A DNA stretch of 31,656 nucleotides from contig NIVC01001351.1 of NCBI GenBank assembly GCA_002269645.1, positions 1 to 31,656 on the forward strand, given 5' to 3'. This DNA is from Macrostomum lignano (lineage: Eukaryota). Position 1 is the first letter of the stretch. Every line of letters begins with the position of its first letter. Below are positions 8,018 through 31,049 of this stretch, one piece after another. The position numbers were made by a program, and so were the translations under genes. The notes beneath the pieces are model-generated. The model was not told the origin of the DNA and searched no databases. It worked only from the letters and a program-made list of their open reading frames with translations.

Positions 8018-8220
8018 ACACTCATTTTGGTGCCGCAGGCACTCATTTTGGCGCGACAGGCACTCATTTTGGCGCGACAGGCACTCATTTTGGCGCCACA
8101 GGCACTTATTTTGGCACCATAAGCACTCATTTTGGCGCCACAGGCACTCATTTTGGCACCATAAGCACTCATTTTGGAGTCATTTTGGTGCCGCAGACAC
8201 TCATTTTGGCGCCGCAGGTG
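8018..8220. repeat. 21-bp minisatellite (GCACTCATTTTGGCGCCGCAG)n, same family as the 27.8-29.5 kb array but in opposite orientation
   Basis: About 9 units; the reverse complement shares CCAAAATGAGTGCCTG with the larger array. Confidence 0.9.
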
Positions 8221-8361: not shown

Positions 8362-9049
8362 ATGCCCCGCATCCTTAACACCACGCTTCGAGGCAGAATG
8401 GCCATTCCGCACTACGGATTTTCCCTGGGAGGTGACGATGTGCTAAATTATATATAAATAAAAATTAGTGTTCGTCTAACTCGAAATAAAAGAAATATTT
8501 TATTAGAAATAGGTTCTCTGTGCGCTTTGAGTTACCCCATACTTTGCATTACAAACTGTTACTTAATTCGAAATTATTTTAGATTTCAACCACTTTTGTG
8601 GGTTTTTGTAACAGTTTAGTGTAATGTCCGCGTAAAATAATTATTCAAGCGTGGTAGACTAGTATTAGTAGACTGCACGTACATGCAAATACACATGTTT
8701 TTTGTTGAAGAATATCGTTTTCAGCCTTCTAGATAGAACGATTACATTCAGAACAACAACATACTGTCATATATTAGGCAACTCCCTGCCCGCACATGAT
8801 GCTTCCCAAATATTCCCGAAATATAGAAGTTCCTTTGAAAGTATCCATAAATACTCGTAGAAGGCATCCAGCATTGTCTTCACTCGAGCCTGGCTTTTGC
8901 ATACGGGAAACTGTCAGACAAAAGCGAACCAAAAAACAACCGTCTTTTTACGCATCATTTACTGTATTTAATATCGCTACGAGAATTCGTGGATATCAAG
9001 GAACAGTAGTTATTAATACTTCTAGATACGCCTACAGAAGGAATGACTT

Positions 9050-10822
9050 ATTGCGGAGCTGTTGGAGTGGTGGAATGGGGGCGGAGCTGTTGGAGGGGTG
9101 GCGGTATGGGGGCGGAGCTGTTGGAGGGGTGGCGGTTGGGGGCGGAGCTGTTGGAGGGGTGGCGGTATGGGGGCGGAGCTGTTGGAGGGGTGGCGGTTGG
9201 GGGCGGAGCTGTTGGAGGGGTGGCGGTATGGGGGCGGAGCTGTTGGAGGGGTGGCGGCATGGGGGCGGAGCTGTTGGAGGGGTGGCGGTTGGGGCGGAGC
9301 TGTTGGAGGGGTGGCGGTATGGGGGCGGAGCTGTTGGAGGGGTGGCGGTATGGGGGCGGAGCTGTTGGAGGGGTGGCGGTTGGGGGCGGAGCTGTTGGAG
9401 GGGTGGCGGTATAAAAGGCGGAGCTGTTGGAGGGGTGGCGGTATGGGGGCGGAGCTGTTAGAGGGGTGGCGGTATGGGGGCGGAGCTGTTGGAGGGGTGG
9501 CGGTTGGGGGCGGAGCTGTTGGAGGGGTGGCGGTATGGGGGCGGAGCTGTTGGAGGGGTGGCGGTATGGGGGCGGAGCTGTTGGAGGGGTGGCGGTATGG
9601 GGGCGGAGCTGTTGGAGGGGTGGCGGTTGGGGGCGGAGCTGTTGGAGGAGTGGCGGTATGGGGGGCGGAGCTGTTGGAGGGGTGGCGGTATGGGGGCGGA
9701 GCTGTTGGAGGGGTGGCGGTATGGGGGCGGAGCTGTTGGAGGGGTGGCGGTTGGGGGCGGAGCTGTTGGAGGAGTGGCGGTATGGGGGGCGGAGCTGTTG
9801 GAGGGGTGGCGGTATGGGGGCGGAGCTGTTGGAGGGGTGGCGGTATGGGGGCGGAGCTGTTGGAGGGGTGGCGGTATGGGGGCGGGGCTGTTGGAGGGGT
9901 GGCGGTATGGGGGCGGGGCTGTTGGAGGGGTGGCAGTGAGCTGTTGGAGGAGTGGCGGTATGGGGGCGGAGCTGTTGGAGGAGTGGCGGTATGGGGGCGG
10001 AGCTGTTGGAGGGGTGGCGGTATGGGGGCGGAGCTGTTGGAGGGTGGCGGTATGGGGGCGGAGCTGTTGGAGGGGTGGCGGTATGGGGGCGGAGCTGTTG
10101 GAGGGGTGGCGGTATGGGGGCGGAGCTGTTGGAGGGGTGGCGGTATGGGGGCGGAGCTGTTGGAGGGGTGGCGGTATGGGGGCGGAGCTGTTGGAGGGGT
10201 GGCGGTTGGGGGCGGAGCTGTTGGAGGGGTGGCGGTATGGGGGCGGAGCTGTTGGAGGGGTGGCGGTATGGGGGCGGAGCTGTTGGAGGGGTGGCGGTAT
10301 GGGGGCGGAGCTGTTGGAGGGGTGGCGGTATGGGGCGGAGCTGTTGGAGGGGTGGCGGTTGGGGCGGAGCTGTTGGAGGGGTGGCGGTATGGGGGCGGAG
10401 CTGTTGGAGGGGTGGCGGTATGGGGGCGGAGCTGTTGGAGGGGTGGCGGTTGGGGCGGAGCTGTTGGAGGGGTGGCGGTATGGGTGCGGAGCTGTTGGAG
10501 GGGTGGCGGTATGGGGGCGGAGCTGTTGGAGGGGTGGCGGTATGGGGGCGGAGCTGTTGGAGGGGTGGCGGTATGGGGGCGGAGCTGTTGGAGGGGTGGC
10601 GGTATGGGGGCGGAGCTGTTGGAGGGGTGGCGGTATGGGGGGCGGAGCTGTTGGAGGAGTGGCGGTATGGGGGGCGGAGCTGTTGGAGGAGTGGCGGTAT
10701 GGGGGCGGAGCTGTTGGAGGAGTGGCGGTATGGGGGGCGGAGCTGTTGGAGGAGTGGCGGTATGGGGGGCGGAGCTGTTGGAGGAGTGGCGGTATGGGGG
10801 CGGAGCTGTTGGAGGAATGGCG
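9050..10822. repeat. 29-32 bp (mainly 31-bp) G-rich minisatellite (TATGGGGGCGGAGCTGTTGGAGGGGTGGCGG)n
   Basis: About 57 tandem units; the consensus has no stop codons, which explains the long ORFs on both strands. Confidence 0.95.
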
Positions 10823-11285
10823 ATGGCGTGCAAAGCTGTGATTGAGTTGTGAAGAGCGCGGATTTATCCTGAGACTTTTTGGAGTAGTGATCGAAGTTAT
10901 CAAGTCGACGAAGATCGACTCTGGGCATAAACTGTAAGTCTATGTCTATTAAGGAATGTAGTCTAAAAAATACATTGACAGGAAAGCAAAGTTCAGTTTT
11001 ACAAAAAAATAAGTTTTAGTCCATTAGGAGGTTAGCAAAATTGTCAGTAATAAACAGAGTTCCACCGGAACTTTCAGCGTCCAGGAAGTGCCCGTTGGTC
11101 AACCGCCTGCAATCGCCGAGTGTTAGTCTGCCCGTGGGCAAATGGAGCAAATCATGTTGCTTGAGTCACGTTTCTGAATTTTGTGCACGTGAAGGTACGA
11201 GTATAGAGTCAAGAAAAAACTATGGGAAACCCTAGGGCCATTGATTCATTTTTTACTTATAATGGACTCAGACCTTGACTAATCC

Positions 11286-12305
11286 CTACTTCACTGAAAT
11301 TAAACAACGAGCCGCATGCAGGACTCTCGTATGACAATGCAATCAAGGTAAACAGAATCACAGCATTTCGTGGAACTTACGGTCATTCGGTTCATGTATG
11401 TAAGTGCCGAACACCTGAACCTCGCAGAGCATCATCCATATATGGTCTCGGTTATGCACCATCACTACGTTACCCACTAGGTTGCAGTGGAAGGTCTTGA
11501 CACTGAACGCATCGTGAGACATGTACGATCCGCACTCGTTGCCATCTACTGTGACCTTGAAGTTCCACAGTCTCTTAATAGTGCCGGGATCGATTATGTT
11601 GAACACTTTGATCTGGGTGATGCGGGCAAGCCTATGTGTTTTTGCCATCCACCAGCCCTTCTCCCGGAGGGTGTGGCTGCAAGAGTTCTGATTGCCGTAC
11701 TGGTTAGTGTTTCCGTCGATGGCTCTGCTGCAGACCCATGTCGAGTAAGTTGAGCTCTGGGAGCAATTGGTGAGCGGCAGCATACCTGAAATCATAAAAT
11801 CAGTTTACGTTGTCGCATCGTATTTTTGTGTTTTCTGTATTTCTGTGATTAAATATTAATCACTAGCACTAAAATTAAATAATGTTTAGTTCGACAAGGT
11901 GTCATGGGACTTACTTGGCCAACTTGACGCTTCATAGACTTGGTTGTGAAACCTGCCTCCACAGGTGCCGCTGCTGCCACTGTACTGCATCGAGCACTTC
12001 TCTTCCTGCCTCCTCGGGTACCGACCGAACTTGCTGCCGCACCAGCACTCGTTGGAGTTCTGCAGGCCAAAGTCCTGCTGGTGCCACTTCTCACAGAGCT
12101 GGTCGCAAAGACCAACGTACATGCCTCTATCGTCGAGGAAGCACCCGATGTAGCGATACGAATACACTGGAATAGCGAGCGATCCAGCGAATTATTTGCA
12201 ACCCATTTTGTACCAACTCGCACTTCTAATGCTAAAAATGCACCAACCTTGCGATAGTGAATGAAGCAGGCAGGTTGCCATCAGTAGCCAGGTGCCGCGC
12301 GCCAT
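11286..12305 (-). CDS. Secreted WSC-domain + F-type (fucolectin) lectin protein, predicted 4 coding exons, about 240 aa: 12305-12248, 12166-11915, 11785-11381, 11293-11286
   Basis: Exon 1 MARGTWLLMATCLLHSLSQ (signal-like); exon 2 YIGCF..C...C..FGLQNSNECWCG..C..CGG..VY (WSC); exon 3 SQSS..RAIDGN..CSHT..WW..LCEVQVFG (FTP). All introns are GT-AG and phase 1 (81, 129, 87 nt), with GTAAGT donors at 11914 and 11380. The last 8-nt exon is least certain; read-through would stop at 11358. Confidence 0.8.
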
Positions 12306-15625: not shown

Positions 15626-15758
15626 CTTTTATAGCTCTCATGCGGCCGATTTGTTATAACGCGCGCCGAATTTTCTGATTGGCTGAGAGCTTTTGTTAAA
15701 ATAGGCGCCGAATTTTCTGATTGGTCGAGCCGGGGGCAGTCAGGTCGACTCTGATTGG
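15626..15758 (-). promoter_or_regulatory. Pol II promoter-like module: three CCAAT boxes plus TATAAAAG
   Basis: ATTGG at 15678, 15720 and 15754 (the first two inside a 20-bp direct repeat GCGCCGAATTTTCTGATTGG); CTTTTATA at 15626-15633. Confidence 0.6.
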
Positions 15759-17434
15759 CTGAGCTCAAGACCCCAAAACCTACCCCACCAGGTGGCCTTC
15801 AGACCCCAGGGAAGATGACAGGTGCGGTCATAAATCATGCGCAAAACATTATAAAAGCCACTTGTCTAGACACCCTGGCGCCAAAAGTGACAGCAAAACA
15901 CCCATAAATTAAAAGAGAATTGTAACAGAGCGAGTGGGGAGAAGGCTGGAAAGGCCTCTTTGACCCAGACAGGCTGGAGCCAAAAGTGACAGCTAGACCG
16001 CCATAAATCACTAAAAACAGTGAAAAAGCCGCAAATCTGGGGGTCAGATGGGGTTAAAACCATCACTCCCAGACTTAGTGTCGCCCGTCTACTGCTAGAG
16101 GTCAATCCGTCTCAAACCCAGACAGTCTGACCTTCAAAGATGCGTAACAATCCAAAATTAGAATCCTAAGAGAAGTACATTGAGTATTTATCATAATTAA
16201 ATAGTGATGGCATAAATTAGTGTAGAACTTAGCCTGGATGAGAGAATGGAGAGAGGTTCCTAAGCTAGCCTAACTGACAGTATTCCCCTATAGGGGAAAA
16301 GCGCATCGCGAAATGTGCGGTTTTAAGATTGCAAAAAGATGCGTCCTCATCACTCCGCTGCACGCCCGGTACGTCAGGGACACGTAACAAGCTGAGTTCT
16401 TTTCCCCACCTCAGCTGTGAGGAGGATAGCGCTGCAGTCAAGAGCGACCGTTCCTCCCTGAGCGACAGTTGTGGTGGTGTAAGCTCCACTGCAAAACAAG
16501 AGCTGTGAATTGATAAACATTCAGCAAATATATGATAACGAAGTCGCATTCCAAGCTTAATAGCTACACACCAATTATTAAGTTCACAAGTACCTAGCTA
16601 AATTCGTGACCATTGAGGCACACAGCTGTTACCAAATAGCTATACCCATGGTTTAATGAGCTGAACTCAATAGACTAGAAGTCCTTAGCTGAAATATTTT
16701 GGGGCAAAACTTTTGAACCATAATCTATAAGATTTTACTACGGTCGCATTTGGGGCCTAAGTTTAAAATTTTGATTTAAAAGTTTTAAAATATAGCGACA
16801 TGGAAAGATGCCAACATTTTGCAACGGATTGATAACGAGAAAACGTATTAAAATAAATATGCTAAGCACTAATTCTCTACACATTTTATAAAGGTTTTGT
16901 AAGTCTTAAGGACCTTATAAAATTATTATAAAATCCACTCTAAGACATAATTAAACGACCTTAAAATATCTTGAGTCATTGAAATCTCATCCGCATAATT
17001 TAGATTTTAGTACCACGTAGTTACAAATACAAGTTGTGTGTGCGTCTGTGTGTGATGTGCTATGAAGGTTAGCTTATTCACTGAGTAAGACTAGCATGCA
17101 TGCATTATAGAAGTAGTAGTTATAATATATATATATGGCAAACTCAAAAGCAAATGCTTTTATGTCTCGAGCTGTCTTTCAATCATCAGTAACAGCCAAG
17201 CAAACAACCATCACTCTCAGTATGTTATGACGTCTCTAAACTTAGAGAATTCATGCAGAGAGGTTTCGGTTTGCAGGCCGTCCCACCAAGTCCCAAGGCC
17301 CAAGAAAAGACTAGGCGGCTAGGCCTAGGCCCCATTTAAGCCGAAAATAAATAAAAACTTGTAAGTTAAGTGCAATGTTTCAAAAATGTTTGAACCATGG
17401 TTGACAAAATGACAATGATATAGGACACCCATGT

Positions 17435-18161: not shown

Positions 18162-18530
18162 TGAGGCGGCAGATTCAACTGATTTTTCGGTTTTTCGATT
18201 TTTAGCGGTTTCTGATACTCCCAATTGGGGTTCTTATATTCTAAGAAATGATTAAGTCTTTAAGCGATTTCAATATTTAGAACAAACTAAATTTGCTTAT
18301 CAAAAACCGAAAGGCAGCAAACGGTTGCTTCCTCAAGTCTGCTCAGCGTGTCTATTTATACCCAAAATTTGTTATAGTTTAAACAAAATAATAATTGCAG
18401 AAATATTTTTGCAAACCACAACATTCAAACAAATATTTCGCGCAGATTTGAATAAAGGTTTTTCTAAGAAAGGCAAACATAAAACGAGTAAAATTTAAAA
18501 GTATTAGAGCTATTATTAATGCCTGTCTCA
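18162..18530 (-). repeat. 3' LTR
   Basis: 18203-18530 matches 26468-26795 with 4 mismatches; starts TGAGACAGGC on the minus strand directly after the PPT; left boundary TGAGGCGG at 18162 is inferred. Confidence 0.85.
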
Positions 18531-18543
18531 GCTGCCTTCCCTA
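18531..18543 (-). other. Polypurine tract
   Basis: TAGGGAAGGCAGC immediately 5' of the 3' LTR on the minus strand. Confidence 0.65.
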
Positions 18544-18974
18544 AACGCAAATTTTGAACAATAAAATTTACAAAAATGTTTGCGTGAAAAATTTGCTAAG
18601 TAGTATTACTAGTATTATAAGGCAAAGATTTGTGAAGAAATTCAAAAGAACGATAAGTACATATTTATGAAAAAGGCAGTAAAAAGGCAATGGCATAACA
18701 AAACTATTTAGTAGGTGCTAATAATAAGGAAGAGTTAGTAGTGTGAAACAAAGCAAGTGTAGCAACAGAGAACTAAAATACAATTTAAGCAAAAAAGGCA
18801 ATACAGGTAACGAAAAATAAAAAAAATGTAAGCTAGTAATAATTTCCTATAAGCATAATTGAAAGAAGAATTTAGCTACTAAATGCTACAAATACTACTA
18901 AGCTAGTAATAAAGCAAAAACAAAAACAATATCAGTACTTTTGCAAATGTTCGATTCAGAGTAACCCTTGTCAT

Positions 18975-20000
18975 TTAGAAGTAGCAATTTCGCGGGAGGT
19001 CTCTGTACTCGAGCCATCCGAGCTGGGTGAAAACCCATCTCACCTCAATGTTGACAAGCTGTCTCTGAATTGGCTGTCGGCTGGCATCCAGATCGTCTCG
19101 AAATCGGTCGATGGCGTATCGCAGCAGAGCGATGGCTTCCTCTCGCGAAAGTCGGGTTCTCAGCTGCCTCAGGCTTGGCCACAGGTAAGCCCGCTGTGGC
19201 AACGCCTGGTCGAGGCGCAGGTGGGCTATCCTTTCCAGATAAACCCTGATGCCGTGCACAACTCGTTCGAGCGTAACGCCGTGCATGTCGATAAGGGCTA
19301 GCGCCGTTTCATGGTACTCTCGCCTTGGCTGTAGCGGCGGATTAGGCACAGGCTGCAGTGGCTGCCTGGGTGTTGCTGGCTGATGTGGCGGAGGCGGCTG
19401 CTGCTGCTGTGGCGGCCGACTCGGCGGCTGCGGCTGGTTCGACGGCTGCGGCAGACGTCTTGGCGACGAATGGCGCGGCGGCTGTGGTGGACGTCTCGGC
19501 TGACGTCTCATTGCTGACTGCTGTGGAGGCGCGGCCAGCTGAAGGGTGCGCCGCTCTTCTCCGGCGCATGGTCTTACGACCAAAGACTTGATTGGCGCTT
19601 TTGCTTGAGCATCCAGAAGAGCGGCCCTCTTGGCTGGAATTGATGATTGTTCAGCGGCTGGCGGTCGCTTGCCTGTTCCTGACAGGGCTCTTGGTCTCGT
19701 CGGAGCTCGCAATGGCGCCTCCTCAATGTCAGGCGCCGATCGGCTGGTTGATGGCGCGAACGTCGCTGCAGGCTGATTTGCTGATGAAGCTGGCGGCCGA
19801 GCTGACGGTACTGGCGACTCAGCTGGCGGCTCGGCTGGCTGCTCAGCTGGCTGCTCAGCCGGCTGGTCTGGAGGTCGAACTGGCGGCGCTGGAGGCTGCG
19901 CTGGAGGCTCAGCTGGCTGGTCTGCTGCGGCGGCGACGGCTAATTCCTCCATGGAGTCGTCCAGCAAATCTTTTAAGAAATTATCTAAGTCGTCGTCCAT
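18975..20000 (-). CDS. Retrotransposon ORF3 of unknown function (341 aa from ATG 20000), not Env-like
   Basis: Intact ORF between pol and the PPT, same strand as gag-pol; acidic N-terminus, Pro/Gln-rich middle, about 115-aa ordered-looking C-terminus; no signal peptide or TM segment visible. Confidence 0.75.
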   Translation of the reverse strand: MDDDLDNFLKDLLDDSMEELAVAAAADQPAEPPAQPPAPPVRPPDQPAEQPAEQPAEPPAESPVPSARPPASSANQPAATFAPSTSRSAPDIEEAPLRAPTRPRALSGTGKRPPAAEQSSIPAKRAALLDAQAKAPIKSLVVRPCAGEERRTLQLAAPPQQSAMRRQPRRPPQPPRHSSPRRLPQPSNQPQPPSRPPQQQQPPPPHQPATPRQPLQPVPNPPLQPRREYHETALALIDMHGVTLERVVHGIRVYLERIAHLRLDQALPQRAYLWPSLRQLRTRLSREEAIALLRYAIDRFRDDLDASRQPIQRQLVNIEVRWVFTQLGWLEYRDLPRNCYF

Positions 20001-20389
20001 TCTAGCTCGCAATATATATTCTTGCGGTATTAACTCAAGATTGACTTGGAGAGGTGTGATCGACGGGTCTATGGAGCTGCAGGGAGTTCAATTGTATATC
20101 TGAAAAACTGGACCGCATCTTCGTGTTCGCACGAGAGGGGGTTTAGCAAATTTCTAACGAGCTCGCTCATTGGCTCACACCGTTACTAAGCGTTGCTAGG
20201 ATTTTTATGCGGAACGAGTTTCGAACAATACCTGCACAATTCTGTATACTCTACTGTTAGTAATGCGCATAACATTTTTACTGTATATGCAAATTTAATA
20301 TTTTTGTATTTTTATAGATTTTATGATTTTTACTTTTTATGAGTTTTATATTGAGTCTATTTACACATTTTTACATGGATTCGGCCTCA

Positions 20390-23300
20390 TTACTTTCGGT
20401 AATGAGAATATCGCCTCCGGGGAACAAAGCCTGTTGCGACTGAGTTCTCTCGGGGTCTCAAATTATATTGATGTCTTTGTTCGGCTCTTTCATTCTCACC
20501 TATCTCTAATGCGTCATCTTCCTCAGCTAACTCAGTTCTTTCACTGTCTGTTGACTCATCTTCTATCTCATTCTGCTCAATTTCCTCTTGCTCAACTTCT
20601 TCCTCAATTGGCTCGATCTCTCTTGCTCTCCACTGAATTCTTTCGTCTTCCGAACTGTCAGTTTCTATTATTGGCTCTAAATGATTTTTCTTACTAATCT
20701 GTTGCCTTCCCTTATTTTTCGGCTCTCTCTTTTTCTGTTGTTCTCTCTGCCTTCCCCTATTTGTAGGTTCCGTCTCTTTATTTGGTTCATTCGGCAAATC
20801 TATTTGCGAGTTGGGTACTGGAGTGAGGTTGTTTCGATGTACGAGCATCTTCTCGCCAATCCTTACTCCGTCTATTTCTCGCTGTACTCGAAATACTGTT
20901 TCGGAAAGTCTCGCAAGGACTCTGAATGCTGCTCTTTTCTTGCGGTGAAATTTATGGCTTTCTTCACTGTGTAATTGCGGATTGTTAATCAATGCGAGGC
21001 ATCCAACCGGTACATGCTTCGGTGGCTTGTTCTCAGCATTGTCCTCCTCTCTACGGTCCTTTACCTTCTCTAGCTTCTTCTGCACGAGTTTCTGTGCTTC
21101 TTCGAGCCTTTCAGCATGGTTTAGCACATAGCTCGGATAATCGTGATACTGCTTTGGCCTTCGAATAATACTGTCTATCCTAAGATCTGCCTCCCTACCA
21201 AATAGCAGGTAGTGCGGCGTGAATCCGGTGGTCTGGTTCACACTAGTGCGCACAGCTACCAGAGCTGCGGGAATTAGCAAATCCCAGTCGGAATGATCTT
21301 TCTCTACTAGACAAGTTACTATTGACTTTATTTGTTTATTGAATCTTTCGACTAGTCCGTTACTTTGTGCGTGATACGGTGTGGTGCATGTATGCTTGAT
21401 GCCATACATCCTACAAAATGCTTGGAACTGACGGCTGACGAATGTCTTGCCATTGTCAGTGTGGATCCACTGGCATTGTCCGTATTCGCTAAAGATTCTT
21501 TCTTGTATGATCTTAATCACTATATCCGATTTCTGATTTCGCACTGGGAACGCAAATGGGAACCGAGTAGTGCTATCTACTACTGTTAGTACGTAGCGAT
21601 GACCTCTTCGACTCTCTTTTGAGATCGGCCCAATCAGGTCAATATGGATCCTATGAAACGGTTCGCATATTGGAAAGGACTGCACTGGCGCCTTCACCTT
21701 ATTTCCTGCCTTACTCTCTAAACAAGGAATACATTCCGAAATATACTTCTCTACTGCAGTTGCTAGTCCTGGTCGCCAAAATCGATCGCGCACACGTTGC
21801 AGTGTTTTATCACGACCTAGGTGACCTGAGAGAGGACTGTCATGCAACTCTCGGAATACTTTTTTCTCAATGTTCTCTGGCAACACGACCTTCTGTGTCC
21901 CGTCTTCGTCTATGGTCAATAACTCGTCTTCTAGCTTCATCTGCTTATAGAACTTTAACATCTGCTTCAACTCTCTAGTTGCATCCTTTGGTAATTTCGG
22001 TTCTCGGATACTCTGCTCCTTCCAGGCTATCAGCGTCCTCATAGAAGGGTCGTCACGCTGAGCTGATGTCAGCTGCTCCTTCTTAAGCGGGACGAAGAGA
22101 TAGTCGGTTAGGAGTTTCCGACAAGCGGTCTCACTAACGTTTTCTTCCGCATCCTCATACACTTCTTCATCATCAGCGAAGTAATCGCTGGCGTCCTCAT
22201 ACTCTTCTTCTTCATCTTCGAAATATTCTCTTGCATCTTCGTACTCTTCATCGTCTTCTACTTCTTCTCTAATTGGATCAGTCTGACAGCTCTGGTGCTT
22301 ACAGCTTGAGATATTGGTCTGACTTCGGTTTACCGTAACGGTAGGAAGTACTGGACCTATCTCAGCTTTAGTGCACTTTTCTGCCTTAGTCTCCTGATTA
22401 TCTTTTAATCTTTCTGCGGGTCGTCTGGATAGTCCGTCTGCATTGGTGTGTTTAGCACCGCTGCGGTGTTCAATGTCATACTGAAACTCACTTAATCTCT
22501 CAATCCATCTACCGAGGATTCCCTGCGCTTCAGTCTGGCGAAGTAGCCATAGGATAGCGCGATGATCTGTTCTTGCCAGGAATCTCTTTCCGATGAGATA
22601 GAATCGGAAGTGTTTCATTCCGTCAACTAATGCTAGCAATTCTTTTCTTGTGATTGGATACCTCTTTTCTGATTCCTTCATGGCTCTGCTAAAGTACGCG
22701 ATGGGCCTTTCAACTCCATCGGATTGTATCTGACCTAAGCAGGCCCCAATCCTGTCATCACTCGCGTCGGTGTCAAGCACCATTCGAACTTCTTCATTGT
22801 CAGTGAACTCTGGGTATGCTAAAACTTCTGTTGATGTCATCTTCTGCTTTAGTAGCGCAAAGGCTTCATCATGACTCTTAGTCCATTTCTCCCTAAAATT
22901 CTGAATTCCCTTCTTAGTTAGCTGGAAGAGCGGGTGCGCTGCTTCCGCGTAATTCTTCACGAACCTACAGTAATAGTTACATAGACCTAGGAAGCTTCTT
23001 AATTCTTTAACGTCCTTAGGCGTCGGCCATGACTGAATTGCTTCTATCTTAGCTGGATCTGTCTTAATTCCTTCTCTACCAACTATGTGTCCTAGATATT
23101 TAAGCTCTTTTTGAAATAGATTACATTTCTTCGGCCTTAATTTTAATCCGGCTGTTACTAGTCTCTGGAACACTTCTCGTAGGTGATCCAGGTGATCCTC
23201 AAATTTCGTTGAGTAAGTTACTATGTCGTCAATGTACGACATGGCGAATTTATGTTGAATCCCCATCAATACTAGGTTCATTAGTCTCTGGAATGTTCCA

Positions 23301-24937
23301 GGTGCATTAGATAGTCCCTGCGCCATGACCTGATACTCGAACTGTCCCATAGTCAAAGTCGAAAATGCTGTCATGAATTTATCCTCTTCCTTAATTGGTA
23401 CCTGCCAATAACCTGAATTTAAGTCTAAACTACTGAAATATTGACTTCCCGTTAGATGAGAGAAAGTTTCCTGAATATTCGGCAACGGATACGGATAGTA
23501 GTTAACTCGAGAGTTCAAGACTCTGAAATCGCTGACAATCCTAATAGTTCCATCTTTCTTAGGCACTATTACTAATGGCGTCGAATAAGTGCTATAGCAC
23601 GGCCTTATTAAATTTTTAGCGAGCATATCGTCTAACTGTTCGTCTACTTGCTTCTGCAGATGTGGTGGTATTCTGCGAGTAGGTATTCTGACTGGCGTCG
23701 TATCCTTCAGCGAGATTTCGTGGGTCACTAGATGAGTGAGGCCCATCTCCTGGCTTGTCTGCGAGAATGCTTCCCTATTCTCTTTCAGCAGCTCTACTAC
23801 CTTTTCTTTCTGCTCTGATGATAGCTCATCTGAGATGTTAATCTCCTGAATCCATTCATCAGTACGAGTATCAGCAGTTTCAGCGCATTTCGCGGATTTA
23901 ACTTGTCCGGTGTCATTCTTGGTAACGAAGTACGTTAGTTCTTCGGCTTTTAATGGCTTGGCAATGCCTACCATTGCTGATTTCCTAATCACTACGTCGT
24001 TATTCTGCCTATTGATCACTTCTACCACACCAGTTCCATTACTCATCGTTAATAAGGTTGGAACCATATCCAGTGTGTCATCTTTTACTGAGATATGTCC
24101 TTTGGTGGTCTCAATCATCATTGGCGTACCGAAGTTCATTTCAGCTCGTTTAGCTAGTTTGACTGGTATTCTTAAAGCACTATTAGCTGGCACAACTACC
24201 TTGTCGTGACAGTAGACTCGGCACACTCGTACCGGCAATTTAGTAAACTGCATCGGAATGCAAACTCCGGTTTTTAAAATCATCATTCCTTTGTCAAAAC
24301 TCATACTCTCGCAAAAGTTCATAAAGAAATCCATTCCTAGGATATCATCACACTCATGGTTGCACAGCAGGAAGTCGGTCACAATTTCTACTTCTCCGAA
24401 CATTATCTTTATTGTCACTTCTCCTTCGATTCGCACAATCGATCCATCGAATGTGGTCACTCTTTGATCAGATGGCCTGATCTCTTGTTCTCTACATACT
24501 CTTCTCCAAGTACTTTTACTTAGAAAGTTACGACCGGCTCCTGTGTCTAACAGAAAGCGAATATTCTGCTTGCGGATCTTTCCGTCAATGACTGCTTCTC
24601 GGCCTTTCTTCTCTGTGCCGGCATCTAAACTTGTCTCTTCTTCTGCACTTTCATTCAGCTTGACGTACTCTTCTGGCTTCGGAGTACTTTTCTTGGGTAA
24701 GCAATCAGGTGCACGCGTAGTATTTACATTCGGTACTGTATGTGCATTCGCATGTTTTTTGTTGGGTTTTCTAAACTTATTATAATTTTCGCATGATTTG
24801 TACTTGTACTGCTTATTAACTTTGTACGCATTATTAACTTTGTACGCATTATTTACAAATTCAGAGGCCTGAATTTTGCTCTGGATTTCGCTAGAGGGAC
24901 GTGGCCTCGTTATTCGGCCCTCGCTTCTCAGTTTCCC
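20390..24937 (-). CDS. pol: Pol polyprotein (protease, RT, RNase H, integrase), about 1515 codons from the slippery site, expressed by -1 frameshift
   Basis: The frame stays open 159 codons upstream of the listed start at 24460 and includes protease LLDTGAG (about 24530-24553); RT YIDD; RNase H DTDAS, ELLAL and TDH; IN H-H-C-C, HIDLIG, TDNG and GLVERFN. Confidence 0.95.
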   Translation of the reverse strand, partial: GKLRSEGRITRPRPSSEIQSKIQASEFVNNAYKVNNAYKVNKQYKYKSCENYNKFRKPNKKHANAHTVPNVNTTRAPDCLPKKSTPKPEEYVKLNESAEEETSLDAGTEKKGREAVIDGKIRKQNIRFLLDTGAGRNFLSKSTWRRVCREQEIRPSDQRVTTFDGSIVRIEGEVTIKIMFGEVEIVTDFLLCNHECDDILGMDFFMNFCESMSFDKGMMILKTGVCIPMQFTKLPVRVCRVYCHDKVVVPANSALRIPVKLAKRAEMNFGTPMMIETTKGHISVKDDTLDMVPTLLTMSNGTGVVEVINRQNNDVVIRKSAMVGIAKPLKAEELTYFVTKNDTGQVKSAKCAETADTRTDEWIQEINISDELSSEQKEKVVELLKENREAFSQTSQEMGLTHLVTHEISLKDTTPVRIPTRRIPPHLQKQVDEQLDDMLAKNLIRPCYSTYSTPLVIVPKKDGTIRIVSDFRVLNSRVNYYPYPLPNIQETFSHLTGSQYFSSLDLNSGYWQVPIKEEDKFMTAFSTLTMGQFEYQVMAQGLSNAPGTFQRLMNLVLMGIQHKFAMSYIDDIVTYSTKFEDHLDHLREVFQRLVTAGLKLRPKKCNLFQKELKYLGHIVGREGIKTDPAKIEAIQSWPTPKDVKELRSFLGLCNYYCRFVKNYAEAAHPLFQLTKKGIQNFREKWTKSHDEAFALLKQKMTSTEVLAYPEFTDNEEVRMVLDTDASDDRIGACLGQIQSDGVERPIAYFSRAMKESEKRYPITRKELLALVDGMKHFRFYLIGKRFLARTDHRAILWLLRQTEAQGILGRWIERLSEFQYDIEHRSGAKHTNADGLSRRPAERLKDNQETKAEKCTKAEIGPVLPTVTVNRSQTNISSCKHQSCQTDPIREEVEDDEEYEDAREYFEDEEEEYEDASDYFADDEEVYEDAEENVSETACRKLLTDYLFVPLKKEQLTSAQRDDPSMRTLIAWKEQSIREPKLPKDATRELKQMLKFYKQMKLEDELLTIDEDGTQKVVLPENIEKKVFRELHDSPLSGHLGRDKTLQRVRDRFWRPGLATAVEKYISECIPCLESKAGNKVKAPVQSFPICEPFHRIHIDLIGPISKESRRGHRYVLTVVDSTTRFPFAFPVRNQKSDIVIKIIQERIFSEYGQCQWIHTDNGKTFVSRQFQAFCRMYGIKHTCTTPYHAQSNGLVERFNKQIKSIVTCLVEKDHSDWDLLIPAALVAVRTSVNQTTGFTPHYLLFGREADLRIDSIIRRPKQYHDYPSYVLNHAERLEEAQKLVQKKLEKVKDRREEDNAENKPPKHVPVGCLALINNPQLHSEESHKFHRKKRAAFRVLARLSETVFRVQREIDGVRIGEKMLVHRNNLTPVPNSQIDLPNEPNKETEPTNRGRQREQQKKREPKNKGRQQISKKNHLEPIIETDSSEDERIQWRAREIEPIEEEVEQEEIEQNEIEDESTDSERTELAEEDDALEIGENERAEQRHQYNLRPRENSVATGFVPRRRYSHYRK

Positions 24938-25953
24938 TGGTTATTCGAGCGGTTCTGCATCTGCGGAGCGTTCTGCTTGGCACTCCTGCACTGCTTTGCA
25001 ATGTGGCCAATCTTCCCGCAGTTATAGCAAGTCTGCGGCTGTTGTCTCGGCTGACCCTGGTTTGGGTGCTGCTGCCGGGCGAACATTTGCTGTCGCGCCT
25101 GCGCTCCATTGCCATACTGTGGCGGAACGGGCTGCGGCTGCTGGGGCTGGTATCTCTGTGGATACTGCCTGGCTGCCTGAGCGTACGAATAATTTTGCGA
25201 AAACTGCTGCTGATTATTCTGCATCTTCTCCTCTCTTAGCTCCTGCAAAGCTCTCTTCTGCTGTTCAATCTCGAACTTCTGCTTCCTAATGATCTCTTCC
25301 AGTCTTTCTTGTTCAGCCTTCCTCTGCTGTTCTTGTTCTTCCTCGCTCTTAGCTACTCTCATGCCTGAATTCCTGCGTGACATGTTCCAGGCTGCTTCCA
25401 TTCTCCTCAGCATTCTTCTGGCTTCCTGCAGATTAGCTGGCTGAGCGAAGATCAGTTTCTCGCGGGTTTCAGGTGGAACTCTCACACCCTTGATGAACTG
25501 TTCCACGATCTCCTCTTCCCGCTGTTCCACAGTCATGTTTGGGAAGGCTCGCGAAGCTAGCTCAATTAGACAATCGGTGTACGATTCTACTAACTCATTT
25601 CTGCCTTGCATTCGGCCTCTAAATTCTTCCCTAAACTCTGCTGAACTGCCAATTCTGCCAAAGCGTTCTACAAGTCTTTCTTTAAATTCTTCGTACTCCA
25701 GATCATCTGGGAGGTTCAAACGCTGAACTGCTGCGAATGCAGTAGCCAGGTCGAGGTTCGCGAGAAGCTCTTGCTTCCGGTTATCCTCTTCGATACCCTC
25801 AGCTTCACAGCGCTGGTCGAAGGCAGTCAACCAGATCCTAATATCTTGACCTGGCGTGAATTTCTGAATTTTCACATGCCTTTGTGGTCCTAACTCTAAC
25901 CTGTTTCTTAGCTCTTCAGCTAGCATCGCAATCGCATCATTTGCGTTGGCCAT
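24928..25953 (-). CDS. gag: Gag (capsid plus CCHC zinc knuckle), 341 aa
   Basis: KFTPGQDIRIWL, FRGRMQG..E.VESY, IVEQFIKGV, CYNCGKIGHIAKQC. Confidence 0.95.
   Translation of the reverse strand: MANANDAIAMLAEELRNRLELGPQRHVKIQKFTPGQDIRIWLTAFDQRCEAEGIEEDNRKQELLANLDLATAFAAVQRLNLPDDLEYEEFKERLVERFGRIGSSAEFREEFRGRMQGRNELVESYTDCLIELASRAFPNMTVEQREEEIVEQFIKGVRVPPETREKLIFAQPANLQEARRMLRRMEAAWNMSRRNSGMRVAKSEEEQEQQRKAEQERLEEIIRKQKFEIEQQKRALQELREEKMQNNQQQFSQNYSYAQAARQYPQRYQPQQPQPVPPQYGNGAQARQQMFARQQHPNQGQPRQQPQTCYNCGKIGHIAKQCRSAKQNAPQMQNRSNNQGN
24931..24937 (-). other. -1 ribosomal frameshift heptamer G GGA AAC
   Basis: Last two gag codons before TGA; the pol frame is exactly -1; downstream GAGGGCC..GGCC..CCCTC can pair. 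Confidence 0.85.
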
Positions 25954-26059
25954 CTCTGATCTTGTCAGGTTCTGCTATTTCTCTAGTCTTCTAAGGTTTT
26001 TGCCGTTTCTCTGATCTAATTCGCGCCGTTTCTCTGATCTAATTCTCGCCGTTTCTCTG

Positions 26060-26077
26060 ATCCCACCGCTGCCACCA
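26060..26077 (-). other. Primer binding site for tRNA-Leu (18 nt)
   Basis: Plus strand ATCCCACCGCTGCCACCA matches the recalled 3' end of eukaryotic tRNA-Leu(AAG/TAG) plus CCA; a second 10-nt copy lies at 26124-26133. Confidence 0.85.
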
Positions 26078-26448
26078 AAAGCTGTCGTAGGGCTCTTATT
26101 TAATCCTTTGTCTAGCCTTACTTGCTGCCACCAAAGTTGTTACAAAGCTATTTCTTCTTAACAATTCTACTGGTTGTTAATTGTAATTCTACTGGTAGCG
26201 CATGTACTTCTATTGGTAGCGTATGTACTTCTATTGATAGCGTATGTACTTCTATTGTACTTTCTGGCCTGAGCGGTCTAATAGCACTGTCTATTCTATT
26301 CCTATGCTTCCCCTAATATTATTCTCTCAGTCCTGGGCGTTCCCTGGATCAGAGGGTCACAGCTTATGCTCTTTCTCTGCCCTGAGGCGATCTTCTCTCG
26401 TTATGAGGCGGTTCTCCTGCCCTGAGGCGAATTTACAATTTACTGCCC

Positions 26449-26795
26449 TGAGGCGGTTTCTCGCTTGTAGCGGTTTCTGATACTCCCAATTGGGGTTCTT
26501 ATACTCTAAGAAATGATTAAGTCTTTAAGCGATTTCAATATTTAGAACGAACTAAATTTGCTTATCGAAAACCGAAAGGCAGCAAACGGTTGCTTCCTCA
26601 AGTCTGCTCAGCGTGTCTATTTATACCCAAAATTCGTTATAGTTTAAACAAAATAATAATTGCAGAAATATTTTTGCAAACCACAACATTCAAACAAATA
26701 TTTCGCGCAGATTTGAATAAAGGTTTTTCTAAGAAAGGCAAACATAAAACGAGTAAAATTTAAAAGTATTAGAGCTATTATTAATGCCTGTCTCA
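26449..26795 (-). repeat. 5' LTR (duplicated core 26468-26795)
   Basis: Matches the 3' LTR; TATAAATA on the minus strand at 26618-26625; inner boundary is ambiguous. Confidence 0.85.
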
Positions 26796-27723
26796 ATAAT
26801 AACTTATAGACCATTGTATTTGATAGTCACAATCTCAATATATTATCTTACAAATAGGCCTATAATGTCTAAGATAGAATTCCAAATAAGAAGCACATTC
26901 AGTTCAAGTTACAAGGGGTTTCTAATTGTATAGGTGAACCAAAGGTTTAGTCTATTGTGGAATGCGGGATGCTTGTTGGTTCAGTTTTAGTGAGTCAATT
27001 TAGCAGTTTTGGCATTTGGGTTAAGACCCTAATTGTGTCAATCAAAGGTTGTTCTACAAAAATAGAAGGCAAAAAGGAGGGAAAAGGGAGGCAAGCTTCT
27101 TGCTTGGTTGACATGGGCTTTTTTAATACTTTTTGGTCTTGATCACATTGGATGGTATATAGCTACTTTCCATTAGTTTGGGTTGTGTCCTCAGCTTTTG
27201 CTAGTTGGAGCACATACATTGGTTAAAATACATTCATTCTGGATAAGAACTTTTTAGAGCCAAAATGTGTCACTTCATATTATTAGATATTTTATCTAAA
27301 AATTTTTAGATCTTTTATCTACTATTATACTAGATCTATAATAATTCTAAGCCTAAGAAGGTTGGGCAAAATCTAGATTATTAGCTATATATGGCTTAAG
27401 AAACCTTTAAATAAAATTTAGGGTATTTAGTTACTTTTTGTAATAGTAATATGGTTTACTTTATATCTTAGTCTTATTTTATGTGTTCTTTGCTCTTTTT
27501 TTCTAAAAATATTTGTTATTTTTTCTTTCTTTATTCTTTTATTTACTTATCTTTGTTTATTAATAGAAAACCACTATTATAACAATAATAATAATAATAA
27601 TAACAACAAAAATATGAAGTCATTATTAGAGTAGGACATATTAGATAGGCCCTAGTACATTGCAGAGCCTAAAAGTTAAAATCAATGTTAGGTGCCCATG
27701 CCCTAGTATTGCATACTAGGTAG

Positions 27724-29552
27724 CAGTGGCATAGTCAGGGGGAGGCCCCCCATTGCCTGGGGGATTGGGTTGGGTGTGGTGGGTACCAAAAACCATGAGG
27801 CAATTGAGTGCTTGCAGCGCCAAAATGAGTGCCTGCAGCACCAAAATGAGTGCCTGCAGCATCAAAATGAGTGCCTCCAGCACCAAAATGAGTGCCTCCA
27901 GCACCAAAATGAGTGCCTGCAGTGCCAAAATGAGTGCCTGCAGTGCCAAAATGAGTGCCTGCAGCACCAAAATGAGTGCCTGTAGTGCCAAAATGAGTGC
28001 CTGCAGCACCAAAATGAGTGCCTGCGCCAAAATGAGTGCCTGCAGCGCCAAAATGAGTGCCTGCAGCACCAAAATGAGTGCCTGCAGCATCAAAATGAGT
28101 GCCTCAGCACCAAAATGAGTGCCTCAGCACCAAAATGAGTGCCTGCAGCCAAAATGAGTGCCTGCAGCACCCAAAATGAGTGCCTGCAGCACCAAAATGA
28201 GTGCCTGCAGTGCCAAAATGAGTGCCTGCAGCCCAAAATGAGTGCCTGCAGCACCAAAATGAGTGCCTCCAGCACCAAAATGAGTGCCTGCAGTGCCCAA
28301 AATGAGTGCCTGTAGTGCCGAAATGAGTGCCTGCAGCACCAAAATGAGTGCCTGTATTGCCAAAATGAGTGCTTGCAGTGCCAAAATGAGTGCCTGCAGC
28401 ACCAAAATGAGTGCCTCCAGCACCAAAATGAGTGCCTGCAGTGCCAAAATGAGTGCCTGCAGTGCCAAAATGAGTGCCTGCAGCACCAAAATGAGTGCCT
28501 GCAGCACCAAAATGAGTGCCTGCAGTGCCAAAATGAGTGCCTGCAGCGCCAAAATGAGTGCCTGCAGCACCAAAATGAGTGCCTCCAGCACCAAAATGAG
28601 TGCCTGCAGTGCCAAAATGAGTGCCTGCAGTGCCAAAATGAGTGCCTGTAGTGCCAAAATGAGTGCCTACAGTGCCAAAATGAGTGCCTGCAGCACCAAA
28701 ATGAGTGCCTCCAGCACCAAAATGAGTGCCTGTAGTGCCAAAATGAGTGCCTGCAGTGCCAAAATGAGTGCCTGCAGCACCAAAATGAGTGCTTCCAGCA
28801 CCAAAATGAGTGCCTCCAGCACCAAAATGAGTGCCTGTAGTGCCAAAATGAGTGCCTGCAGTGCCAAAATGAGTGCCTGCAGCACCAAAATGAGTGCCTC
28901 CAGCACCAAAATGAGTGCCTGTAGTGCCAAAATGAGTGCCTGCAGTGCCAAAATGAGTGCCTGCAGCACCAAAATGAGTGCCTGTAGTACCAAAATGAGT
29001 GCCTGCAGCACCAAAATGAGTGCTTCTAGCACCAAAATGAGTGCCTCCAGCACCAAAATGAGTGCCTGTAGTGCCAAAATGAGTGCCTGCAGTGCCAAAA
29101 TGAGTGCCTGCAGCACCAAAATGAGTGCTTCCAGCACCAAAATGAGTGCCTCCAGCACCAAAATGAGTGCCTGTAGTGCCAAAATGAGTGCCTGCAGTGC
29201 CAAAATGAGTGCCTGCAGCACCAAAATGAGTGCTTCCAGCACCAAAATGAGTGCCTCCAGCACCAAAATGAGTGCCTGTAGTGCCAAAATGAGTGCCTGC
29301 AGTGCCAAAATGAGTGCCTGCAGCACCAAAATGAGTGCCTCCAGCACCAAAATGAGTGCCTGCAGTGCCAAAATGAGTGCCTGCAGCGCCAAAATGAGTG
29401 CCTGCAGTGCCAAAATGAGTGCCTGCAGCACCAAAATGAATGCCTGCAGTGCCAAAATGAGTGCCTGCAGCACCAAAAGTGGCAATGGCATAAGGCATGG
29501 CCAGCTAGGCCAACCTGCCTCCTCCCAATTGAAATTCCTGGCTACGCCATTG
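27724..29552. mobile_element. Non-autonomous hAT element (1829 bp) consisting almost entirely of a 21-bp minisatellite
   Basis: Perfect 8-bp TSD CTAGGTAG (27716-27723 and 29553-29560); TIRs CAGTGGCATAGTCAGG and CAATGGCGTAGCCAGG (reverse complement), 13/16 match. Confidence 0.9.
27805..29480. repeat. 21-bp minisatellite (CAAAATGAGTGCCTGCAGCAC)n
   Basis: About 80 units; source of the MSACSAK, LQALILA and GTHFGAA repeat ORFs. Confidence 0.95.
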
Positions 29553-31049
29553 CTAGGTAGTCAATGTATTGATGGGTTTGGGCCTAACCTTGACCCCATT
29601 TAAATAGGCATTATAAGGTGAGCAAGAGGGTATCTTGAATAGGTTAGGGACATAAGCCCTTGGCCTAGATCATGTGACTTACCAGTTGAAGTTGCCACTG
29701 GCATAGGATAGGCCTAATAGATAGGTGCTGCAGCTTGGCCTAATCATATAAGGTCTCTTTTCCTAAAGCATTATTATAGATAGAGCATTAGCAAAGTGAT
29801 TGACTTTAGCTTATACTAAAAATTATACAATATTTTCCAACTCTTGCTTGGGCACATTGGGTCTAGGCTTAGCTGCTAAATAAGACAAGCAAATATGAGA
29901 CAGTTTACAAAGTTGAAAGTGCTTGACACAGATAAAGTAGGTGGTGTATTACTATCTCATTTGTAAGAGAGTTGTTTCAATGGGTAAAATTGATCAAAAC
30001 TAGCTATAACTATTGACATCTGTATAATAATGAAATCAAGTTGAACTTGCTATAACTAATTTACAATACCATCAAATGAGGCAATTTTTTAACACATGAC
30101 TTGTTTATTGACTTTCATTCTTTTATTACTTTGTTTGTATGATTTGATAAGATTATGAAGAGGATTTTGAACTACCATCTCTTGATCTATGGGGGCGAAA
30201 GCCAGCACTCAGTGTATTTTAGTTGGCCTACTACCTCTGGTTAGATAAACCTCTTGACTGACTGGACTGAACTGATTGGTCTAAAAGGACTTACAGTATA
30301 TGAGCTGCTCATTTGTACCTTAGTTTTGTTTGTTTCCTTAGACCTCAAATATGCTCATACACTCAGCACATTTTAAATTTTCCACCCAAAACCAATGGTA
30401 AAATTTTATCAGATCTCACCCAAGTGACGCAGTTCAACCACGCCCACAAGGCCCTAGCTTAGGCTGGTGAGAGAGTGGGGAGTTAAGAGTCCTCATGAAC
30501 TGGAAACTCTTAACATGTTTGAGAAGTATGAATATTAGGTGCGTTTTTATTCAAAGACTAATCCTCTTGATAGTGAGCTGTTTGTGATACTTTTAAAGAA
30601 ACGTAGCGATGACTTCTAACTTAGACTGGTCAGGCACCGAAATTTTCACACTTATCAGCTGCCTTCAGAAGCTGCTGAGCAAATGTCCTGTTCCTGCTTC
30701 TAACTGCTCTCTCCAGGGTTTGAAAGGCAAATCGTTCTGCCAAAACGTATGTCTTGGGAAGCAGAATGTCTTCCGAGTCTTCTTCAAGTCCTGAAATGAC
30801 TTCGTGGTCGCAGCTGGTCAGCCAATGTGTCATGAAGGGGGCTTCACAAGACAGAAACTTCACAACGCAGAAAACTACTGCACGATCCTTCACAGAACCG
30901 AAACTTACAAGCCGAAATTCTGCATGGTCATCTGCATGGTGTATATTATGTTTTCTACGATATGAAATTTCGGTCTTTTAAAAGCGCTCCATCATAAAAG
31001 ATGAAACTGGTATAAGACGTACTGGTTCGAGTACTATCTTTAAGGCATA

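What the first reader, a model, noticed from the sequence alone, without database searches (positions are those of the whole stretch)
18975..20000. Intact non-Env third ORF in a Gypsy element: candidate accessory or regulatory gene
Seen: an uninterrupted 341-aa ORF occupies the env position between pol and the PPT. It has no signal peptide, furin site or TM helix. It has an acidic-hydrophobic N-terminus (MDDDLDNFLKDLLDDSMEEL), a long Pro/Gln/Ala linker with QPAE repeats and a basic KRP..KR patch, and a compact C-terminal domain (YHETALALIDMHG...LGWLEYRDLPRNCYF) that I do not recognise. Known: third ORFs of errantiviruses are Env fusogens, and some LTR families carry unrelated extra ORFs. Inference: the layout resembles a nuclear trans-activator or anti-silencing factor. 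The frame has stayed open while the LTRs accumulated 4 changes.
Basis: partly seen in the sequence, partly recalled or inferred. Interest (0 to 1): 0.75.

Follow-up and report, generated by a model that had tools for sequence, protein, structure and literature searches.

The report
Orphan accessory gene of flatworm retrotransposon
A jumping gene, likely of a flatworm, carries a conserved third gene that is not an envelope gene and matches no known protein family; its product likely acts in the nucleus to boost the element's own expression, which is untested.

Summary
The ORF is real: 341 codons at 20000-18975 (minus strand), between pol and the 3' LTR of a Ty3/Gypsy element, with no Env features. 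Five relatives were found among 1.84 billion proteins; the four with a name are Macrostomum lignano records. They share a five-helix C-terminal domain (32-54% identity; AlphaFold pLDDT 82) with no Pfam or clear fold match. The two full-length relatives also keep an acidic amphipathic N-terminal helix and an APLR-x-PTRP/KRP...K[KR]AA block inside otherwise scrambled linkers (0 of 3000 shuffles). One relative also shares the pol-ORF3 spacer, so it likely sits in a related element. Best reading: an element-borne nuclear adaptor that raises expression from its own LTR (40%); RNA export or defence antagonism remain close rivals. Non-Env ORF3s are a known kind. The scan noted other ORF3 types (J-domain) in this genome, but no look-alike of this protein.

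The parts
26468..26795 (-). 5' LTR, block shared with the 3' copy (starts TG; TATAAA at 26625)
26083..26467 (-). Likely rest of the 5' LTR/leader, absent from the 3' copy; holds 14-mer and 21-mer repeats, a first PBS-like 10-mer (26133) and a candidate splice donor GTAAG (26121)
   Evidence: LTR assignment inferred from PBS position
26060..26077 (-). 18-nt primer binding site (tRNA-Leu type recalled, not from a call)
24928..25953 (-). gag, 341 aa, one CCHC knuckle
24931..24937 (-). GGGAAAC slippery heptamer at the gag end; -1 frameshift into pol inferred
   Evidence: downstream hairpin not significant (z -1.35)
20390..24940 (-). pol frame, open for 1516 codons: protease, RT, RNase H, integrase
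   Evidence: best PDB match Ty3 Gag-Pol, E 1.7e-98
20001..20389 (-). pol-ORF3 spacer: six ATGs, TATAAA at 20350 and 20316, CCAAT at 20173
20096..20170 (-). Spacer block shared with relative P0002 (22 of 25 identical when read as peptide); contains acceptor-like TTTTTCAG ending at 20100; a second acceptor-like CTGCAG ends at 20077
18975..20000 (-). ORF3, 341 aa
19953..20000 (-). ORF3 residues 1-16: acidic amphipathic helix, kept in P0002 (9/16) and P0007 (6/16)
19617..19721 (-). ORF3 residues 94-128: conserved EAPLR-x-PTRP and KRP...K[KR]AA (bipartite NLS-like) block; 22/35 and 19/35 identical to relatives
18978..19316 (-). ORF3 residues 229-341: predicted five-helix orphan domain, invariant Y254 L255 R257 I258 R262 L267 P268 Q269 R270
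18543..18974 (-). T-rich 3' untranslated stretch (46% T)
18531..18542 (-). Short purine-rich tract (PPT-like) abutting the 3' LTR
18203..18530 (-). 3' LTR, only the 328-nt shared block; 4 differences from the 5' copy

Best explanation
ORF3 is a conserved non-envelope accessory gene of a Ty3/Gypsy lineage, likely in the flatworm Macrostomum, whose product likely enters the nucleus and raises expression from its own element. Shown: an intact ORF, a family of diverged relatives, and conservation of three modules. Inferred steps: (1) ORF3 is made from a sub-genomic message, either by splicing to the acceptor-like site at 20100 or from a promoter in the spacer, because six ATGs precede it in the spacer; (2) the KRP...KRAA block imports it into the nucleus; (3) the five-helix domain, with three invariant arginines on one helix-loop-helix, docks on element DNA, RNA or a chromatin factor; (4) the acidic amphipathic N-terminal helix recruits a host co-activator across a disposable Pro/Gln tether. 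Close sister elements appear to carry other, diverged ORF3 types behind the same spacer, as expected of family-specific regulators.
For: Relatives: 6 hits at E<=0.001 among 1.84 billion proteins, 5 kept (E 1e-28 to 9e-10) and 1 dropped as chance (P0006, E 9e-4). C-domains are 32-54% identical to ORF3. In the disordered part, residues 1-20 and 90-130 beat 3000 of 3000 shuffles against both full-length relatives, while 21-89 and 161-228 do not (812-2387 of 3000 reach the score); this points to selection on short motifs. Hydrophobic moment of the N-helix is 0.62-0.65 in 3 of 3. AlphaFold with 7 sequences gives pLDDT 81.9, pTM 0.77, five helices. Four-fold-site GC of ORF3 (0.49) equals gag (0.49) and differs from the host carbonic anhydrase ORF (0.82), so it is long resident. 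P0002 shares the spacer, 22 of 25 as peptide, score 117 vs shuffle maximum 43. The first ATG after either acceptor-like site is ORF3's, and both sites fit the M. lignano trans-splice acceptor motif [T/C]TNCAG (PMC8629364, passages; P(2 or more by chance)=0.02). The named relatives are gene models of an RNA-seq-based annotation that excluded transcripts overlapping annotated repeats (PMC5730564, passages), a hint of stand-alone transcripts. [quoted passage not shown]
Against: No function was tested. The C-domain is only weakly basic (19 K+R vs 15 D+E) and shows no recognised DNA-binding motif. The acidic stretch is only about 16 residues, and such helices serve many adaptors. The NLS-like motif has only two basic residues at each end (canonical pattern recalled). 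P0004 and P0005/P0008 are C-domain-only models without the N-helix or NLS-like block. Genomic context is shown for none of the relatives; only P0002 is tied to an element, through the spacer. P0002's model reads through the acceptor-like site, so at least that model is not spliced there. CpG is not depleted in ORF3 (o/e 0.96), which weakens a DNA-demethylation version. The splice sites were picked after looking. No codon-level dN/dS was possible.
Confidence: 0.4

Rival explanations
1. Rev/CERV-like RNA adaptor: ORF3, made from a spliced message, binds unspliced genomic RNA in the nucleus and licenses its export or stability.
For: Candidate donor (26121) and acceptors (20100, 20077) would create the retention problem that CERV solves in Cer1 (PMC10309623, abstract and one discussion section). 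NLS-like block and invariant arginines fit RNA binding.
Against: No arginine-rich RNA-binding motif or zinc loop; no conserved RNA structure in the spacer (z -0.54 and -0.38); splicing not shown.
Confidence: 0.2
2. Host-defence antagonist or assembly adaptor (Bet-like, or piRNA/RNAi-pathway binder) that acts through protein contacts, with fast divergence driven by host conflict.
For: The family is split into types at 32-59% identity. Short motifs in a disordered tether suit protein binding. In one search summed contig depth over ORF3 is 2.0-4.0 times lower than over pol in 4 of 4 runs, a hint that near-identical sisters carry other ORF3 types.
Against: The NLS-like block is kept in 3 of 3 full-length proteins; there is no match to any defence-related family. 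Contig depth is not a copy number.
Confidence: 0.22
3. Negative regulator or inter-element competition factor: ORF3 limits its own family's copy number or blocks rival families.
For: Divergent types behind a shared spacer would also suit family-specific interference.
Against: No Gag similarity, which dominant-negative restriction factors usually have (recalled): hhalign probability 0.1 against gag and pol.
Confidence: 0.08
4. Passenger: a captured host-gene fragment or a neutral GC-rich frame.
For: ORF3 is GC-rich (0.61 vs pol 0.44). Context of most relatives is unknown, and P0005/P0008 could be host genes.
Against: Motif-specific conservation at under 50% identity; gag-like four-fold-site GC; no relative outside Macrostomum-labelled or unnamed records.
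Confidence: 0.08
5. Degenerate Env or small fusogen.
For: Position only.
Against: No signal-like or membrane-spanning stretch in 6 of 6 proteins scanned (best hydropathy 0.22-1.01), 0-3 Cys, all-helical soluble model. Flatworm errantiviruses described so far are GAG-ENV-POL with gB-type Env (PMC13524379, passages).
Confidence: 0.01

Closest known systems
Non-Env ORF3s of bdelloid rotifer LTR retrotransposons (DEDDy exonuclease, GDSL esterase; PMC5408684, abstract and section 3.3)
   Same: Sense third ORF between pol and 3' LTR of invertebrate Ty3/Gypsy elements; family-specific
   Different: Those are recognisable captured enzymes; this is an orphan helical domain with a motif-bearing disordered arm
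CERV of C. elegans Cer1 (PMC10309623, abstract and one section)
   Same: Novel nuclear accessory protein of an animal Gypsy element with no retroviral homologue
Foamy virus Tas/Bet (PMC8003144, passages) and Tor3b/4b internal promoter (PMC4402516, passages and discussion)
   Same: Gene just before the 3' LTR; expression from a sub-genomic message; Tas is a nuclear trans-activator
   Different: No homology shown; internal promoter and trans-activation untested here; the Tor product is Env
VANC anti-silencing proteins of Arabidopsis VANDAL transposons (PMC5735166, abstract)
   Same: Divergent element-encoded paralogues; short tandem repeats that vary between relatives lie in the element's non-coding leader
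   Different: Plant DNA transposons acting on DNA methylation; no homology; binding untested
Plant additional ORFs between pol and 3' LTR (PMC7264820, passages)
   Same: Conserved extra ORFs of unknown, possibly nuclear regulatory role
   Different: The nuclear ones are mostly antisense; the sense ones are env-like with TM helices

Membership tests
Ty3/Gypsy LTR retrotransposon (host element) | gag then PR-RT-RH-IN order | tested here: met
Ty3/Gypsy LTR retrotransposon (host element) | Two LTRs with PBS and PPT | tested here: met
   328-nt shared block, PBS and short PPT present; 3' LTR looks truncated
Ty3/Gypsy LTR retrotransposon (host element) | Target-site duplication | tested here: not met
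   None of 4-6 nt; a contig in X3 joins 18188 to 26799 with 22 other letters, consistent with loss at the 3' junction
Ty3/Gypsy LTR retrotransposon (host element) | Clade (Mag, CsRN1, Gmr1/Osvaldo, Mdg3) by RT tree | not testable with these tools
   No reference RT set on hand
Errantivirus Env (F or gB type) | Signal peptide or TM helix flanking an ectodomain | tested here: not met
   Best 19-residue hydropathy 1.0; acidic N-terminus; definition from PMC13524379
Errantivirus Env (F or gB type) | Furin site, cysteine bridges | tested here: not met
   No R-x-[KR]-R, 2 Cys, no N-glycosylation sequon
Errantivirus Env (F or gB type) | Fusogen fold | tested here: inconclusive
   Model is a small five-helix domain; fold searches list no clear match
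J-domain ORF3 (earlier scan notes, same genome) | HPD motif / DnaJ domain | tested here: not met
   No HPD in 6 of 6 proteins; no DnaJ Pfam hit
DEDDy or GDSL ORF3 | Catalytic motifs on an alpha/beta fold | tested here: not met
   All-helical model without strands; no Pfam hit
Tas-like or VANC-like regulator (works-like) | Sequence-specific binding to the element and activation | not testable with these tools
   Needs reporter and binding assays
Tas-like or VANC-like regulator (works-like) | Own sub-genomic message | tested here: inconclusive
   Signals present; contigs cannot show RNA ends
CERV/Rev-like export factor (works-like) | Needed for export of unspliced genomic RNA | not testable with these tools
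   Needs knock-down with RNA localisation

The most novel reading that the evidence does not exclude
An animal LTR retrotransposon lineage encodes its own family-specific, sequence-specific trans-activator or anti-silencer: an orphan five-helix domain recognising the short repeats in its own leader. The gene is a swappable cassette behind a fixed expression signal, so sister elements with near-identical gag-pol carry different specificities, a VANC/Tas-like system in a flatworm Gypsy element.
Probability: 0.15. Interest if true: 0.85.

Novelty: new variant of a known kind. Interest (0 to 1): 0.52.

Why it matters
Few animal LTR retrotransposons are known to encode regulators of their own expression (CERV is the clearest case I read). 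A new orphan family with conserved motifs, in a host where LTR-reporter transgenesis and RNAi work (PMC12801592), makes it directly testable whether simple retrotransposons carry Tas-, Rev- or VANC-like functions. The value is moderate because extra ORF3s of unknown role are common and the function is unproven.

Tried and rejected
No whole genome was held, so sister copies, dN/dS and the context of relatives could not be examined. Word-indexed homologue searches: 0 of 186 candidates, 1 of 7990, 2 of 7992 among longer proteins, no pol-ORF3 fusion; all hits were already known. Pfam, NCBIfam, PHROGs, PDB sequence and ESM Atlas searches gave nothing significant for the window's ORF3. Foldseek found no match at E<=0.001 in PDB or BFVD. 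VIA-align best Z was 10.1 (rmsd 4.6, 110 aligned, a designed protein) for the single-sequence model and 7.4 (rmsd 3.7, 103 aligned) for the better model: generic helical matches. Absence of a match does not show a new fold. Viral and metagenome contigs held no ORF3 relative; two distant pol fragments only. Gag or Pol origin rejected. No Rfam family. No canonical heat-shock element in the LTR. No RNA holder listed among sequencing runs; no evidence either way. No spliced joint among the 15 of 45 joints shown. A closer look at reads over the spacer was not obtained, so where sisters diverge from this ORF3 remains open. A homodimer prediction was not obtained: no verdict. Gene-model ids were not found in supplements of PMC12801592, PMC5730564, PMC5816591 or PMC12896417; those of PMC5946080 and PMC8629364 could not be read and might hold expression data. 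Four motifs were absent from supplement 5 of PMC12801592. Nine literature searches showed no description of this ORF; the word ORF does not occur in the main text of PMC12801592. The earlier classification paper that it cites was not read.

Full report
Observation. The ORF exists as described: 341 codons, minus strand, 20000-18975. A frame this long arose in 1 of 5000 base shuffles and 9 of 2000 Markov simulations. It lies 389 nt after the pol stop and 444 nt before the 3' LTR. My scan found no hydrophobic segment (best 19-residue mean 1.0), no R-x-[KR]-R site, no sequon and 2 Cys.

The element. It is a Ty3/Gypsy retrotransposon: gag with one CCHC knuckle, a GGGAAAC heptamer at the gag end, and a pol frame open for 1516 codons in the order PR-RT-RH-IN. 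The LTR copies share 328 nt with 4 differences. The PBS-like sites lie 334 and 390 nt further in, the intervening DNA has no second copy, and there is no target-site duplication. A contig joins 18188 to 26799 with 22 other letters. I infer that the 3' LTR and some flank were lost.

ORF3 is a gene family. A full phmmer scan of 1.84 billion representatives with the C-terminal 120 residues gave 6 hits. I kept 5 and dropped P0006 (E 9e-4). With two cluster members that makes 7 proteins: P0002, P0003, P0004, P0005 and P0008 are Macrostomum lignano records, and P0001 and P0007 are unnamed. The host is therefore likely M. lignano or a close relative. P0003 looks like a chimeric gene model (LRR domains by Pfam). 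C-domains are 32-54% identical to ORF3, with a near-invariant Y-L-x-R-I-x-x-x-R-x-x-x-x-L-P-Q-R core. The two full-length relatives also keep residues 1-20 and 90-130 (0 of 3000 shuffles reach the score against either), while the Pro/Gln/Ala stretches are no better than shuffles. Residues 131-160 are kept in P0002 only. This island-like conservation is the real evidence of selection. Four-fold-site GC is 0.49, equal to gag and far from the host carbonic anhydrase ORF (0.82), so the gene is not a fresh capture; the C-domain alone is intermediate (0.60).

Link to elements. P0002 begins with a peptide that matches the window's pol-ORF3 spacer at 20170-20096 in 22 of 25 positions, much closer than its ORF3 domain (51 of 113). 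P0002 thus likely lies in a related element, and the spacer is either a conserved cis-element or the fixed side of a cassette swap. Public contigs hint at the same. ORF3 is covered by single contigs with 0-1 other letters in X1, X3 and X9 (11 gaps in X9), and its summed depth is 2.0-4.0 times lower than pol's in 4 of 4 runs. In X1 and X3 the bin holding the proximal spacer (19949-20255) is as deep as pol, and 3-5 contigs carry other letters at 20089-20094. The tool warns that depth is no copy number, so this is a hint only. Context is unknown for the other relatives.

Structure. AlphaFold2 gave pLDDT 70 from the single sequence and 81.9 (pTM 0.77) with 7 sequences: five helices, no strands. 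Sequence-family, Foldseek and VIA-align searches gave only generic helical matches. There is no similarity to the element's Gag or Pol and no HPD motif, so this is not the J-domain ORF3 that earlier scan notes describe in this genome.

Expression. Six ATGs in the spacer precede ORF3, so it needs its own message. Two acceptor-like sites (ending 20100 and 20077) follow the last of them and fit the M. lignano trans-splice acceptor motif (PMC8629364, passages; P=0.02 for two). A GTAAG donor lies at 26121 in the leader. TATAAA (20350, 20316) and CCAAT (20173) allow an internal promoter instead, as in Oikopleura Tor3b/4b (PMC4402516). P0002's model reads through the acceptor, which favours a start further upstream for that copy. 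The named relatives are RNA-seq-based gene models (PMC5730564, passages). Expression of this copy is not shown.

Mechanism. The layout is an acidic amphipathic helix, a disposable tether with an NLS-like block, and a folded domain with conserved arginines. That is an adaptor. I put 40% on a nuclear activator or anti-silencer of the element's own LTR, by analogy with foamy virus Tas and VANC. The leader's variable short repeats would be the candidate targets. Against it: weak net charge of the domain (+4), no DNA-binding fold, C-domain-only relatives, and no CpG depletion. Rivals are a defence antagonist or assembly adaptor (22%), a CERV/Rev-like export factor (20%), a repressor (8%), a passenger (8%) and Env (1%).

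Known versus new. Non-Env third ORFs are known in rotifer and plant elements (PMC5408684, PMC7264820), and a regulatory accessory protein is known in Cer1 (PMC10309623). I read the abstract, results, conclusions and most methods of the M. lignano LTR survey PMC12801592 (parts 1-3 of 6), its supplement 1 and part 1 of 2 of supplement 3; the main text never mentions ORFs. Nine paper searches showed no account of this protein; unread supplements and papers outside the library may bear on that. The scan's own index has no look-alike of this sequence. Verdict: a new orphan protein family in a known role class, function untested; interest 0.52.

Noticed in passing
window 18189-18202 and 26796-26799: The 3' LTR ends abruptly in a short filler resembling the adjacent flank. 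A contig in run X3 joins 18188 to 26799 with 22 other letters, and loose ends at 18188 occur in X1, X3 and X9: an empty-site allele or a paralogous repeat.
   Followed up: partly
window 18203-18530 vs 26468-26795: All 4 LTR differences are G/C in the 5' copy and A/T in the 3' copy; 3 of 4 fall on CpG sites (7% of positions; P=0.001, or 0.03 given a G/C site), a hint of methylation-driven change.
   Followed up: partly
window 26002-26456: Leader/U5 holds 14-mer (x3-4), 21-mer (x3) and 23-mer (x3) repeats and two PBS-like sites 56 nt apart. It is indel-rich among sisters and has the highest contig depth of the element.
   Followed up: partly
window 20069-20170: A 33-codon ORF in the spacer matches the N-terminus of gene model P0002, where it runs in frame into ORF3; here it is out of frame and stops. 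Conserved cis-element, uORF or swap breakpoint.
   Followed up: partly
window 20390-24403: Of the 35 pol differences among the 40 rows shown (1080 more not shown), 27 are synonymous: sisters' pol is under purifying selection.
   Followed up: yes
window 20134-20885: A joint skipping the integrase tail and part of the spacer occurs in runs X1 and X3 (table 5c): likely a deleted copy.
   Followed up: no
window 5398-6429, 11358-11795, 11886-12191 (minus): Host ORFs: alpha carbonic anhydrase, an F5/8-like domain and a WSC domain.
   Followed up: no
window 27673-29600 and 8019-8177; 9018-10900; 15650-15763: A 21-nt satellite with an inverted copy 20 kb away, a 31-nt G-rich satellite, and a triple CCAAT-box-like repeat.
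   Followed up: no
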